NCBI GenBank assembly: GCA_951406725.2
Contig: OX597820.1
Span: 63,302,001 to 63,366,000 of the forward strand
Origin: Octopus vulgaris
Taxonomy: Eukaryota
Reading direction: 5' to 3'
Length of the DNA stretch: 64,000 nucleotides
Shown: in pieces, positions 2,805-52,343 of the stretch
Layout of the letters: each line of letters opens with the position of its first letter
How positions within the stretch are numbered: the stretch's first letter is position 1
Position numbers and translations under genes: made by a program
Notes under the pieces: generated by a model
Databases searched by the model: none
The model's input: the letters and a program-made list of their open reading frames with translations, nothing else
Told to the model about the DNA's origin: nothing

Positions 2805-3462
2805 ATTACTTGTGCCTCTGAAAACATAATTTATGTCATAAATAGCTCGGGCTGCCACCAAGACTACGTGGGATCCACGGGACTATCACTCAGACGTAGA
2901 AGCACACTGCATCGACAACAGATTGCATTACCAGAATACAGAATGATACCTTTTAGTGAGCACATTGAGAAATGCGCAAAGCAACTACTACCACAATTTT
3001 TAATCTTTCCATTTTACCAATTTGCTATCGGATCATCAACACAAACTATACTAAACAAGGAAACATTCTTCATTGAAAATACAAGCCCAGACTTAACCAT
3101 TCCAACATACTCATACAGAGAAATTCACCCCAAAGGAAAGGAAAAAGATTTTAAGCGATTATCTCCCTTACACCGGAAGAAATCACTTATTACCTCCCCT
3201 TATTTAGAACTCTTTTCGACATAAACATAACGATAACTCTCCTCAACATAAACATAACGACGTAAGAAATTTGAAAAGCTAAACGCGAAACCGGTCTTTC
3301 TTCTAAACTATGTCATTGTAAGAAAAAAATTTATAATATTCTTCAGACATATTGACTTAAATATATATTCTTTAACCTTTTAAAACAAGCCTTCTGTAAT
3401 TTTTTCACTTTTTACTATTTTCTATATATTCAACCACGTGCTTTCACAAACCAACTTTCTTA
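2805..3462 (+). mobile_element. 5'-truncated Penelope-like element: GIY-YIG endonuclease end plus 3' pLTR, ending in (TA)n
   Basis: Translation ITCASENIIYVINSSGCHQDYVGSTGLSLRRRSTLHRQQI...SEHIEKC...NKETFFIE carries the GIY-YIG signature. An HHR motif lies at 3264-3302. Confidence 0.85.
3264..3302 (+). ncRNA. Minimal type-I hammerhead ribozyme motif, U3-A8 variant
   Basis: aagaaa-t-TTGAAAA-gc(taaac)gc-GAAA-ccgg-TC-tttctt: 6-bp stem I, 2-bp stem II and palindromic CCGG stem III. Confidence 0.75.
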
Positions 3463-3594
3463 TCTATATATATATATATATATATATATATATATATATA
3501 TATATCATACATACATACATACATACATACATACATACATACATACATACATACACACTAACAATTACATATATGCATTTTTATTTATTACTTA

Positions 3595-3920
3595 TTGGCA
3601 CTCCGTCGGCCATGACTACGAGGGTTCCATTTAATCCGAACAACGGAATAGTGTTGGTGAAATATACGTCCAAGTGATTGAGCACTCCATTGAAACGTGT
3701 GCCATTTAAATAATTCGCATGGAGATTCAGTCTGACAGAGATGGTGACAAGGTTCGCCCATTGAATTACGAGTACAACTCATTATTAGCAGCTGAGTGAA
3801 CTGGGGCAGCAACGTGAAGTAAAGTGTCTTGCTCAGGGACACAACGGGCCACCGGGAATTGATCTCACCGTACTAAGATCGTGACTGGAACTAGCTAACA
3901 ACCAAGTCCCGCACCTTCAC
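3595..3920 (-). mobile_element. tRNA-derived SINE, family C variant
   Basis: cagctgagtgaactgg...caacgtgaagtaaagtgtcttgctcaggg core shared with copies at 5.3, 31.2 and 49.0 kb. Confidence 0.75.
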
Positions 3921-5310
3921 GTTATACATGCATATATACATGCATATATGTGCGTGTGTGTATGTATGTATGTATGTGTGTTGTTGTGTATGTGTGTATA
4001 TATATATATATATATATATATATATATATATATTTGTGTAGTTTAATAAATGACAATCAAGCTTTGTGTGCTTCCTAGTTTAGCATATCAGCTGTATTGA
4101 GGGCAAGAGAGTGGTGAAAGCATAGTAAAAATCTAGATCACAAGCATCAGGACATTCTTTATCATTTTCCTCTGCACTCCTGGAGCAAGTGGTTCTCTGA
4201 AAGTATGCGGAATCTGCAATGTTCTCCAGACATGAGACACACGGTTAGCGTCTTGTAATGTGGCTTGTATTGATAAATATTATTTTCTAAGATATTAATA
4301 TTTATTCTTCGCACATAATATATTGATTTCGTGCAAACAAAAGCTGTATGTAAAGCCCTTTTATGCAAGATCTATAATTGTTAACATATATTGAACATCA
4401 ACATTTGTTATATTCATTTGAAATCTTCACAATTTTCTGTAAATGTTGTCGAGTTCCATATCGAATCACAAGATATGATTTATCTAAGACAGTCACGGGT
4501 AAGAAGCTAAGTCCTGCACTATTTTCTGAATAGCACACCTAAGGAAACTATTATCTTGAATTTCAAGATAATCAGCATTGGGGCCCGCTTATCGAAGAGC
4601 CATGACTAGTGGATTTAACTTCACAAGAATTGTTGCCAATGCTTTATAAAGTCACAACAGGACCAGCAGCAGCAGTGACAGCAACTAGAACAACAACAGC
4701 AACAATATACTATAAAGAAACACCCAACAACGAAGAGTTTGGAGATTTCTTATAGAGTCATAGGAACATTCAATATTCCCTTAAGGGAAGGATAGAACAG
4801 AATAAAGCCGTCTTAAATACACTATGCCTCAGTGAAAGACGGTATTTTGAAATTAGCTTCTAAAAGTTAGCAAACAGATATATTAAGTTATCGTATAACA
4901 ACTTGTGACAAACTAGAGTTGAAATATGGATTTTTTGCGTAATTATATCATACATTTTAGGAGATTATATGTATTTAAGTGTAATGTATGTATTTGGAAT
5001 TTAAAAGCGTGACAAAAGAAATGTAGTAAGTTCAGAAAGAAGTGTATATTAAACTCATTACCTTGCAGTTTGTTTAGTATATTAAAACAGACGTAAACGA
5101 CTCTCTAAAGTCATCTAGAAATGGGATTTTCTGTATGACATTAGAATTATCTATCTATTTATCTGCCTACCTACCTACCTGTCTGTCTGTCTGTCTGTCT
5201 GTCTGTCTGTTTATCTATCTATCTAAGTCCTATCAATCTATGAATAATTATACACACACACACACAGACACACAAACACACACACATATATATATATATA
5301 TATATATATA

Positions 5311-5540
5311 ATAAATGCGCCCTTTTAAAGCCTAGACAGGCACATGGGCCGGTTTCCCGGTTTCAATGACATACGTGTTCCCCAGCTGGACGGGAAGCCA
5401 GTCCATCACAGCGTTACTCATTTTTGCCAGCTGAGTGGACTGGAGTAACGTGAAATGAAATATTTTGCTCAAGAACACAACGCGCCGCCCGGTCCAGGAA
5501 TCATGATGCTAACAACCTAACCACCAAGCCACACGCCTCC
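5311..5540 (-). mobile_element. tRNA-derived SINE, family C
   Basis: Reverse complement of 48994-49250, with a short internal deletion. Confidence 0.9.
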
Positions 5541-5629
5541 ACACACACACACACACACACACACATATATATATATATATATATATATATATATATATAT
5601 GTGTGTGTGTGTGTGTGTGTGTGTGTGTG

Positions 5630-5838
5630 TGCGTGTTGGTGTCTGAGTTTGTCCCCACCATCATCGCTTGACAAACGATGTTGGTGTGTTTACGTACCCG
5701 TAACATAGTGGTTCGGCAAAGACCCGACAGAAGAAGTACGAGGCTTACAAAGAATAACTTCTGGGGTAGATTTCTTCGACTAAGGGTGGTGCTCCAGCAT
5801 GACTTCAGTCAGATTACTGAAACAAATAAATGAATAAC
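5630..5838 (+). mobile_element. SINE family A, 3' half
   Basis: cgcttgacaaacgatg...ggtgctccagcatg...ctgaaacaa tail. Confidence 0.85.
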
Positions 5839-50164: not shown

Positions 50165-50635
50165 TACGTGAAGGAGTTGACCGTGAGGTAAGTAGCTTGG
50201 TTAAGAACCACATTGCTCCGGTTTCAGTCCCACTCCGTGGCACCTTGGACAGGTGTCTTCTACTATAGCCTCGGGCCGACCAAAGCCTTGCGAGTAGATT
50301 TGGTAGACGGAAACTGAAAGAAGCCTGTCGTATATATGTATGTATATATATATATATATATATATATATATATATATATATATATATATATATATATATC
50401 AATATATATATGCATGTATGTGTGTGTGTATATTTGAGTTTCCTCCCCTCAATGTCGCTTGACAACCGATGCTGGTGTGTTTACGTCCCCGTAACTTAGC
50501 GGTTCGGCAAAAGTGGCCGATAGAATATGTACTAGGCTTCTAAAGAATAAGTCCTGGGGTCGATTTGCTCGATTAAATGCGTTGATCCAGCATGGCCACA
50601 GTCACATGGCTGAAACAAGTAAAAGACTAAAAGAG
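50165..50635 (+). mobile_element. Full-length SINE, family A
   Basis: Homologous to 9284-9707. Confidence 0.9.
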
Positions 50636-50733
50636 AATATATATATATATATATATATATATATATATATATATATATATATATATATACATATATATGT
50701 ATGTATAAGGGTGAAAAGGAACACACGAGTTGA

Positions 50734-51706
50734 TATATATGAAAAAACAAGTCAAAATAGAAAATGCTAAAATAATTTTATAAAGAACATTTCAGTACCG
50801 GTTTCGGTCATTTTGAGACCTTTTCAACTGTAACGATTAAATAATTAAATTTGGAAAAATTAAAAGAAAAGTTTTTTTAAAGGAATATTTGTATAGTGTT
50901 CAAATATAAGTGGCATTCTGCCTTTCTCTGTCTCCCTTGTTTGCACTTGTGTGTTCGAGGCCGTTATTCCAAAGAATCCATTACAAATCAGCCCCAATCA
51001 CAGCCATAATCCATAACGTGCCAACTTCAAGTCATAGAACACCTCACTACTTTCACCCATTCATATTCTCCCTTCTCTTTTTTCTTCTTCTTCCACTTCT
51101 TCTTCATCATCCTCATTATCATCATCGTCGTCATCATCATCACCATCATCAACATCATCTTCTTCTTCTCCTTCTCCTTCTTCTTCTTCTTCATCATCAT
51201 CATCATCATCATCAGCATCGTCATCTTCTTCTTCTTCTTCTTCTTCTTCTTCTTCTTCTCCACCTTCTACCTCTTACCTTTATCACTAATGCTTTTTAGT
51301 ATAACACCTACGCAAATTCCATAAACAAACCTTTCAATAGAAATATTCTCCTGAATTGAACTGCAACTGCTAGCCGCCACTGACCATTCAAAATACGACC
51401 ATCAAGGCACTCCCAAATTTTCCACCCCCTCTCCTCATCAACCTTCTTCTTCTTCTACCCTACCAAGAATTCACAACGGCCTCGAACACACAAGTGCAAA
51501 CAAGGGAGACAGAGAAAGGCAGAATGCCACTTATATTTGAACACTATACAAATATTCCTTTAAAAAAACTTTTCTTTTAATTTTTCCAAATTTAATTATT
51601 TAATCGTTACAGTTGAAAAGGGCTCAAAATGACCGAAACCGGTACTGAAATGTTCTTTATAAAATTATTTTAGCATTTTCTATTTTGACTTGTTTTTTCA
51701 TATATA
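50734..51706 (+). mobile_element. Truncated Penelope-like element with about 232-bp inverted pLTRs, each carrying a U3-A8 hammerhead
   Basis: Arms 50734-50965 and 51475-51706, one mismatch seen. HHR cag-TTGAAAA-ggtc(tcaaaat)gacc-GAAA-ccgg-TA-ctg at 50793-50830 (-) and 51610-51647 (+). The spacer retains an endonuclease-like end RKFHKQTFQ*KYSPELN. Confidence 0.85.
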
Positions 51707-52030
51707 TGTATATATACGTATACGTATACATATACGTATACACAAACATGCACCACAACCCGCATACTTTGATACTTAAGTACATTTAGGACAGTACTGA
51801 CACTCGCCATGTCAAACTGGCGAAGTCATTCAAATGAGAATTCGTGCACCATGAGATACTCAAGTATAGAATTATAGTTTAAGGAGACATATCCGGGTGC
51901 AGTAGGTTTAGTCGAGATATCCTGAACATATTGGAGCAAAATTCCTCTTGAACTTTGTGGGAGGTGTTTCTGCTTTAATTTGTTTTGGTGTAGCTTATAT
52001 AGATTGATAGATACTGCGCTTCAGACATGC

Positions 52031-52219
52031 ATATCTATCTATCTATCTATCTATCTATCTATCTATCTATCTATCTATCTATCTATCTATCTATCTATCT
52101 ATCTATCTATCTATCTATCTATCTATCTATCTATTTATCTATCTATCTACCTATCTATCTATCTATCTATCTATCTATCTATATATATATATATATATAT
52201 ATATATATATATATATATA
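52031..52219. repeat. (TATC)n(TA)n microsatellite at the 3' junction of the Penelope element
   Basis: Seen directly in the sequence. Confidence 0.95.
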
Positions 52220-52265
52220 AAGTAGATTGATCAAAATAAAATAAAAACATGATGCGAAGGATTCA

Positions 52266-52343
52266 GCGGTACATATGTTTCGGGCCTTTATTAGACAGAT
52301 TTATAACAATGCATAATGTATGTCTGTGGCCTTCTTCAGCCGC
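52266..52343 (-). ncRNA. Type-I hammerhead ribozyme motif with long stem II insert
   Basis: Reverse complement: gcgg-CTGAAGA-aggcc(about 45 nt, including acaga/tctgt)ggccc-GAAA-catatg-TA-ccgc. Confidence 0.82.

What the first reader, a model, noticed from the sequence alone, without database searches (positions are those of the whole stretch)
3264..52343. About 15 small hammerhead motifs in 64 kb, with natural covariation of the catalytic 3-8 pair (C-G, U-A, G-C)
Seen: the pattern stemI-core-stemII-GAAA-palindrome-TH-stemI' recurs, with varying decay, at 3264, 6462, 7527, 7997, 14.61/14.68 kb, 15518, 33663, 38854, 39241, 41840, 42918, 50793, 51610 and 52266. Cores are CTGANGA, TTGAAAA (U3-A8; 3.3, 50.8 and 51.6 kb) and GTGAACA (G3-C8; 14.6 kb). 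Stem III is usually a palindrome (CCGG, TCAATTGA, ATAT, CAGCTG, CAATTG, CATATG). Established: positions 3 and 8 form a Watson-Crick pair in the active HHR fold, and PLE-associated minimal HHRs have palindromic stem III and can cleave as dimers. Inference: several families keep the 3-8 pair by compensatory change, which argues for selected self-cleavage. This would be a dense population of ribozyme-bearing retroelements that a strict CUGANGA search would partly miss.
Basis: partly seen in the sequence, partly recalled or inferred. Interest (0 to 1): 0.85.

Follow-up and report, generated by a model that had tools for sequence, protein, structure and literature searches.

The report
Penelope-element hammerheads, one with swapped core
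The window is packed with decaying copies of the small hammerhead RNA motif already known from Penelope-like jumping genes, and one very common repeat family carries a naturally swapped core base pair (G-C instead of C-G) that likely still allows self-cutting.

Summary
All 15 cited motifs are there and far exceed chance. They are 12 insertions of 10 high-copy repeat families. Three families lie at the 3' end of Penelope-like (PLE) coding sequence and a fourth flanks an RT remnant. The other six show PLE-type ends, but no coding partner was found. This is the published PLE minimal hammerhead, and natural U3-A8 covariation in PLEs was reported in 2014.

In a scan open to all 16 pairs at positions 3/8, 11 of 11 multi-copy families were Watson-Crick (7 C-G, 3 U-A, 1 G-C), against 22 of 67 singletons. 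That supports selection on source elements, but rests on about two independent swaps.

Possibly unreported: a roughly 240-nt non-coding family with a fixed G3-C8 core (about 20,000 loci), and a more abundant family with A6U. It argues that fast cleavage is not needed for spread.

No cleavage was shown, and the key paper (Lünse 2017) could not be read. The scan noted PLE hammerheads before in other genomes, including a different G3-C8 motif.

The parts
3264..3302 (+). Family A hammerhead, U3-A8 core, CCGG palindrome, 2-bp stem II; most copies lack one stem I base that a subfamily keeps
2781..3224 (+). GIY-YIG-like endonuclease frame, the 3' end of a 5'-truncated PLE; ends 40 nt before the family A hammerhead
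   Evidence: atlas score 0.95, GIY-YIG clusters; Pfam GIY-YIG E 0.024, below cut-off
6462..6497 (+). Family B hammerhead-like motif, C3-G8 but A6U; CG palindrome decayed; diverged subfamily
7527..7562 (+). Family B motif (A6U) in a roughly 220-nt element (7467-7645) between (TA)n runs; decayed
7997..8053 (+). Family C hammerhead, canonical core, 8-nt palindrome, intact
14606..14652 (-). Family D hammerhead, G3-C8 core, intact; inverted arm of the 14.6-kb insertion
14677..14723 (+). Family D hammerhead, G3-C8 core, U16.1 decayed to C; direct arm, the element runs on to about 14865 and ends in (TA)n
15517..15563 (-). Family E2 hammerhead, canonical core, CAGCTG palindrome; this copy is 5'-truncated at stem I and decayed
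33662..33704 (-). Family F motif, canonical core and stem II, stem III not palindromic, decayed
38854..38889 (-). Family B motif (A6U), CG palindrome decayed
39239..39344 (-). Family H hammerhead, canonical core, stem II region about 75 nt long, decayed; inverted end of an old PLE insertion
39408..40003 (+). PLE reverse-transcriptase remnant between the two family H motifs
   Evidence: tblastn, 36% and 28% identity to the window's other PLE, E 2e-12 and 1e-8
41839..41944 (+). Family H hammerhead, decayed (GAAG for GAAA); direct 3' end of the same insertion (link inferred from geometry)
42918..42965 (-). Family E1 hammerhead, U4C core, CAGCTG palindrome; sister of E2
50793..50830 (-). Family I hammerhead, U3-A8 core, intact; arm of a 233-nt perfect inverted repeat
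51610..51647 (+). Family I hammerhead, U3-A8 core, one stem II mismatch; direct arm of the same insertion
52266..52343 (-). Family J hammerhead, canonical core, long stem II, CATATG palindrome; young family (top hits 99-100% identical)
54257..56385 (-). 5'-truncated PLE, RT plus C-terminal GIY-YIG in two overlapping frames, Hydra-clade-like motifs; its roughly 1.9-kb 3' region ends in the family J hammerhead

Best explanation
These are copies of minimal type I hammerhead motifs at the 3' ends of Penelope-like retroelements and of short non-coding elements that likely depend on them, and in the source elements they likely cut their own RNA slowly, as pairs joined through the palindromic stem III. 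Shown: the motifs, their families, the Watson-Crick 3-8 pair in every multi-copy family, and the link to PLE coding sequence for families A, I and J. Inferred: (1) selection acts on the few transcribed source elements, while the dispersed copies decay; (2) a swap at 3-8 survives only when both bases change, which happened at least twice (U-A in one PLE lineage, G-C in family D); (3) cutting after UH needs a second copy and probably the PLE protein, as reported for the anole element; (4) cutting is a minor or late step, because inserted copies carry sequence on both sides of the cut site and so came from uncut or re-ligated RNA.
For: Enrichment over shuffles. Families of 116 to 3,300 first-look candidates each. 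11 of 11 multi-copy families Watson-Crick at 3-8 against 22 of 67 singletons under the same 16-pair descriptor, Fisher p 2.5e-5. Stems differ wholly in sequence between families while the core and GAAA stay. In 20 family D loci fetched with a query that excluded the core, 18 have both G3 and C8 and none has C3 or G8. Contigs of four runs under four other organism labels show no change of 4% or more at the D core. Endonuclease 40 nt upstream of A and in linked orientation upstream of I in 6 of 28 other loci. J is continuous with the window's PLE. Inverted arms, one-sided tails and (TA)n targets are as described for PLEs (PMC8557442). Predicted homodimers pair through the palindrome for A, C, I, E1 and J. 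Engineered C3G/G8C partly restores cleavage of a PLE hammerhead, which needs the PLE protein (PMC11167929, passages).
Against: No cleavage was tested. Family B (A6U; 43 of 60 related motifs) and E1 (U4C) spread with changes at conserved core positions, and B is the commonest family in the blind sample (8 in 400 kb). The Fisher test treats related families as independent, and 7 of the 11 were sought from window queries. The four found blind are 3 C-G and 1 U-A. A natural U3-G8 wobble family is listed in PMC4209133 Fig. S3. The predicted best dimer of D did not use its ATAT palindrome, and a transcript across both D arms folds as one long hairpin (-97.9 kcal/mol) that hides both motifs. No coding partner was found for B, C, D, E1, E2 or F. 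PMC11167929 found cleavage unnecessary for insertion in vitro and no RNA-seq ends at the site.
Confidence: 0.7

Rival explanations
1. The hammerhead fold is kept as a structural or protein-binding signal in the PLE ribonucleoprotein (packaging, RT start, translation), and cleavage is incidental or absent in most families.
For: A6U and U4C are fixed in successful families while N7 varies freely and stems and GAAACG persist. Copies span the cut site. PLE hammerheads are slow in vitro (PMC4209133), and catalytic mutants still insert (PMC11167929).
Against: The 3-8 pair forms in the active conformation (PMC3088659, section 8; PMC11167929), and it is the pair that is kept. G5, G12 and H17 are kept in all family majorities examined.
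Confidence: 0.2
2. The G3-C8 core of family D is a lucky double change in one source element of a non-autonomous family that no longer needs its hammerhead; its copy number reflects one burst, not selection.
For: All D copies are one family, so this is one event. There is no C3-G8 sister family: the resemblance to family F was not significant. No coding partner was found.
Against: It needs two transversions that restore a pair while every other hammerhead feature stays (7-bp stem I, G10.1-C11.1, 5-bp stem II, GAAA, ATAT, UU). No multi-copy family with a single 3 or 8 change was found.
Confidence: 0.08
3. The motifs are chance matches in AT-rich repetitive DNA.
For: Loose descriptors give many chance singletons (67 in about 0.98 Mb) and one false cluster inside an abundant repeat.
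Against: 4 intact hits against 0.08 expected. Family majorities are better hammerheads than the window copies, and they lie where PLE hammerheads are known to lie.
Confidence: 0.01

Closest known systems
Minimal hammerheads in PLE pLTRs (min-HHR; Cervera & de la Peña 2014, PMC4209133)
   Same: Type I layout, short stem I, extra base after A9, G10.1-C11.1, palindromic stem III, many sequence families per genome, mostly single or inverted pairs from truncated PLEs; U3-A8 families (about 1,300 hits in Schistosoma mansoni).
   Different: None of the 56 representative motifs in its Fig. S3 has G3-C8 or U6 (53 CUGANGA, 2 U3-A8, 1 U3-G8). The density estimated here (about 56,000 intact motifs, 95% range 24,000-110,000) is above its 4,000-9,000 per genome, though descriptors differ.
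Small-stem-III hammerheads of PLEs that cleave as dimers (Lünse, Weinberg & Breaker, RNA Biol 14:1499)
   Same: Dimer cleavage through short palindromic stem III (as summarised in PMC6765202, section 11).
   Different: Paper not held; whether it lists G3-C8 or A6U variants could not be checked.
Natural core variants (Perreault et al. 2011, PMC3088659)
   Same: Natural U3-A8 covariation; position 6 variant (A6C) with low activity; weak two-pair stem II tolerated.
   Different: Section 8 names U3-A8 only, not G3-C8, and the cases are not PLE families.
Anole Poseidon PLE hammerhead (Frangieh et al. 2024, PMC11167929)
   Same: PLE hammerhead in which C3G/G8C partly rescues cleavage; tail signature from internal RT start.
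   Different: The swap there is engineered; family D has it naturally.
Non-LTR retrozymes (PMC7229834; bioRxiv 10.64898/2026.07.22.740005)
   Same: Short non-coding animal elements with type I hammerheads, proposed to depend on PLEs.
   Different: Retrozymes are head-to-tail arrays; families B and D are dispersed single or inverted copies.
Hydra-clade PLEs (Craig et al. 2021, PMC8557442)
   Same: The 54.3-56.4 kb element has a CxCX5C linker, CxxC and CxH motifs near the end, a canonical hammerhead and a (TA)n target.
   Different: No tree was built; its 3' region is long (about 1.9 kb).

Membership tests
PLE minimal hammerhead (min-HHR) | Type I layout: stem I, core, stem II, GAAA, A15.1-U16.1, H17 | tested here: met
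   Family majorities of A, B, C, D, E1, E2, H, I, J; F is unclear at stems I and III
PLE minimal hammerhead (min-HHR) | Core CUGANGA or the published U3-A8 form | tested here: met
   Met for A, C, E2, F, H, I, J. D has G3-C8, B has A6U and E1 has U4C, so these three are variants outside the published consensus
PLE minimal hammerhead (min-HHR) | Palindromic stem III | tested here: met
   CCGG (A, I), CG (B), TCAATTGA (C), ATAT (D), CAGCTG (E1, E2), CAATTG (H), CATATG (J); not met for F
PLE minimal hammerhead (min-HHR) | Located in the pLTR / 3' end of a PLE with RT and GIY-YIG endonuclease | tested here: inconclusive
   Met for A, I, J and by geometry H. No coding link for B, C, D, E1, E2, F in the loci held; D shows PLE-type inverted arms (9 of 20 loci) and a one-sided tail
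PLE minimal hammerhead (min-HHR) | Self-cleavage as a dimer | not testable with these tools
   Only folding predictions; no raw RNA reads were offered
Non-LTR retrozyme | Head-to-tail tandem array of 170-400-nt units, each with a hammerhead | tested here: not met
   No such array at any of the 15 sites; family loci are single or inverted
Hydra-clade PLE (54.3-56.4 kb element) | CxCX5C linker, CxxC and CxH motifs, C-terminal GIY-YIG, (TA)n target | tested here: met
   Read from the translation against PMC8557442 section 11; insertion ends in (TA)n
Hydra-clade PLE (54.3-56.4 kb element) | RT groups with the Hydra clade in a tree | not tested
   No reference set fetched
Rfam hammerhead models | Score at the gathering threshold | tested here: not met
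   No hammerhead among the 150 listed of 296 window hits; in 7 loci only a weak HH9 match (17.7 bits, cut-off 52) to one family C copy and none to three D copies

The most novel reading that the evidence does not exclude
Family D is the first natural, high-copy hammerhead with the fully swapped G3-C8 core and is catalytically active. Together with an abundant A6U family, this shows that PLE-dependent elements use a wider catalytic core than current search patterns allow, so the largest hammerhead families of this genome are invisible to standard scans.
Probability: 0.25. Interest if true: 0.45.

Novelty: new variant of a known kind. Interest (0 to 1): 0.3.

Why it matters
The system is known, so the main claim is not surprising. 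The G3-C8 family would supply a natural version of a textbook rescue mutant. With the U-A, U4C and A6U families it gives a ready natural series to test an open question: whether PLE hammerheads are kept for cutting or for something else. It also shows that ribozyme counts made with a strict core miss large families (9 of 15 motifs in this window).

Tried and rejected
Rfam scan: swamped by microsatellite matches, with no hammerhead among the 150 rows shown of 296. Repeat finder: swamped by microsatellites, useful only for the 233-nt inverted repeat.

A twelfth multi-copy cluster with a U3-A8-like core (L045) was dropped from the family count. It is a chance match in a few copies of an abundant repeat whose other copies lack GAAA.

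Kinship of family D (G3-C8) with family F (C3-G8), suggested by similar stems, was rejected. The first profile was contaminated by two D copies and one unrelated sequence. A clean profile of 20 F copies matched D only over the motif, at best E 0.66, and the shared tail in L247 and L261 came from D inserted into F.

No coding partner for D: no hit to four PLE protein queries in L001-L030, and no shared upstream sequence in 20 of 20 further loci, judged by eye.

Expression: no RNA holder listed. The four runs laid were contigs, which cannot show RNA ends.

Literature searches for a natural G3-C8 hammerhead: 'G3-C8' gave 1 paper, an engineered variant; 'C3G'+'G8C' gave 2, one read in passages and engineered, the other (PMC8495972) seen only in the listing; 'GUGANCA' and 'G3C8' gave 0. 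'A6U' gave 2 listed papers, by title not on natural hammerheads and not opened. Lünse 2017 and Przybilski & Hammann 2007 are not held. Supplement file 1 of PMC4209133 was not searchable and bioRxiv supplements are closed, so absence from print is not established.
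Full report
Setting. The window lies in a 2.8-Gb genome of 227 contigs and is rich in microsatellites. From recall this looks like an octopod; that was not tested and nothing below depends on it.

Observation. All 15 cited sites hold a type I hammerhead pattern. 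A descriptor needing a Watson-Crick 3-8 pair, three stems and a palindrome found 4 intact loci, against a mean of 0.08 in 60 shuffles. A second descriptor gave 4 against 0.2 in 30 shuffles. The other sites are decayed or variant, so each was checked against its family. Eleven searches of the own genome returned 116 to 3,300 first-look candidates each; only the best 40 are scored, so these are lower bounds.

Families. Alignments resolve ten families. A (3264) and I (50793, 51610) have U3-A8. D (14606, 14677) has G3-C8. C (7997), E2 (15517), F (33662), H (39239, 41839) and J (52266) have the canonical core. E1 (42918) has U4C, and B (6462, 7527, 38854) has A6U. Most family majorities are cleaner hammerheads than the window copies, whose defects are mostly CpG-type changes. 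Two exceptions: F lacks a palindromic stem III, and most A copies lack one stem I base. The pairs in D, I and H are inverted ends of single insertions, so there are 12 insertions.

Link to Penelope-like elements. A GIY-YIG-like frame ends 40 nt before the A motif. A related endonuclease (45-50% identical) lies in linked orientation upstream of the I motif in 6 of 28 other loci. J ends the 3' region of an RT plus GIY-YIG element at 54257-56385; other copies are continuous from the motif to within about 85 nt of the stop. That element has Hydra-clade motifs (PMC8557442 section 11). The H motifs flank an RT remnant. For B, C, D, E1, E2 and F no coding link was found. D is about 240 nt long: in 20 of 20 loci fetched with a query that left out the core, shared sequence stops within about 25 nt upstream of stem I, and 9 of 20 carry an inverted arm. 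B is about 220 nt with a mostly fixed 5' end between (TA)n runs. Inverted arms, one-sided tails and (TA)n targets are PLE signatures (PMC8557442, passages), so dependence on PLE enzymes is inferred.

The 3-8 pair. A scan of about 0.98 Mb (window plus loci) open to all 16 pairs gave 283 hits, 12 multi-copy clusters and 67 singletons. One cluster was false and dropped. The remaining 11 are all Watson-Crick (7 C-G, 3 U-A, 1 G-C), against 22 of 67 singletons (p 2.5e-5). Caveats: 7 of the 11 came from window queries, F and J were not captured as clusters by this descriptor, and A and I are kin. The independent swaps may be only two. For D, 18 of the 20 unbiased loci have both G3 and C8, and none has C3 or G8. 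Contigs from four runs under four other organism labels show no change at the 4% level across the core, at summed depths above 2,000, so the family is shared across species.

Against a simple reading. Among 60 B-related motifs anchored on the stem II side, 43 have U at position 6 while position 7 varies, and related lineages have canonical or U4C cores. A change at position 6 gave low activity in PMC3088659 (A6C; section 8 read). B is nonetheless the commonest family in the blind sample. Inserted copies span the cut site. A transcript over both D arms folds into one hairpin, and the predicted best D dimer does not use its palindrome, whereas A, C, I, E1 and J dimers do.

Abundance. Forty blind 10-kb stretches gave 9 intact hits, 8 of them Watson-Crick, against 1.2 in total expected from shuffles. 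That scales to about 56,000 motifs (95% range 24,000-110,000). B is about 56,000 (8 copies by homology, some partial) and D about 21,000 loci (4,300-61,000). These estimates are rough.

Mechanism. Most likely the source elements are transcribed from a pLTR; two motifs pair through stem III and cut slowly after UH, probably with help from the PLE protein; and reverse transcription starts downstream of the motif on uncut or re-ligated RNA, leaving truncated, often inverted copies that then decay. Only the anatomy is shown here. The rest follows PMC4209133, PMC6765202 and PMC11167929.

What is known. PMC4209133 (main text parts 1-2 of 4 and supplement file 2 parts 1-2 of 3 read) describes this kind of motif, its inverted pairs, and about 1,300 U3-A8 hits in S. 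mansoni. Its 56 representatives include no G3-C8 or U6 core, but one U3-G8. PMC3088659 reported natural U3-A8 in 2011. PMC11167929 (passages) shows engineered C3G/G8C partly rescuing a PLE hammerhead. PMC3884650 mentions an engineered G3-C8 (passages). Passages of PMC7229834, PMC13725137, PMC10085705, PMC6155905 and PMC6962438, and part 1 of 5 of bioRxiv 2026.07.22.740005, showed no natural G3-C8 case. Searches found none. Lünse et al., which from recall lists about 150,000 such variants, could not be read, so novelty of D and B stays open. Earlier scan notes describe PLE hammerheads in other genomes and two single G3-C8 motifs with an extra core base; none concerns this genome or family D.

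Verdict. The feature is real and largely known. What may be new is a natural high-copy G3-C8 family and a natural A6U family, both untested for activity. Interest 0.3.

Noticed in passing
window 6462, 7527, 38854; L087-L110, L151, L167, L177, L186, L189: Family B: a roughly 220-nt dispersed element in (TA)n whose hammerhead core has U at position 6 across subfamilies 75-95% alike, with position 7 free; sister lineages have canonical or U4C cores. About 56,000 copies by a rough estimate.
   Followed up: partly
window 14596-14865; L245-L264: Family D has a nearly fixed 5' end about 25 nt before the hammerhead, unlike the variable truncation of families A, E, I and J; it may mark a transcription start.
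   Followed up: partly
L247:26-396 and L261: Two of 20 family D copies sit inside family F elements at the same spot, just before F's terminal motif: possible targeted nesting.
   Followed up: partly
window 54257-56385 (-): Young Hydra-clade-like PLE with a roughly 1.9-kb 3' region; many copies 99-100% identical at the 3' end, so recently active.
   Followed up: partly
window 21136-24580 (-): LINE-type element with endonuclease (PF03372, E 1e-16), RT (PF00078, E 6e-19) and zf-RVT in several frames.
   Followed up: no
L057:724-770 and L072: A third U3-A8 hammerhead family (CGCG palindrome) found blind in flanks; not in the window.
   Followed up: no
   Followed up: no
window 633, 9917, 16904, 18910, 26359, 33080, 48032; L159, L162, L188: A very abundant repeat of about 185 nt, often in short tandem runs (69 hits in 400 kb); it gave a false hammerhead cluster.
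   Followed up: no
window 44607-44664 (-): Partial match (80%) to another hammerhead-bearing family (L141); only the part from GAAA onward seems present.
   Followed up: no
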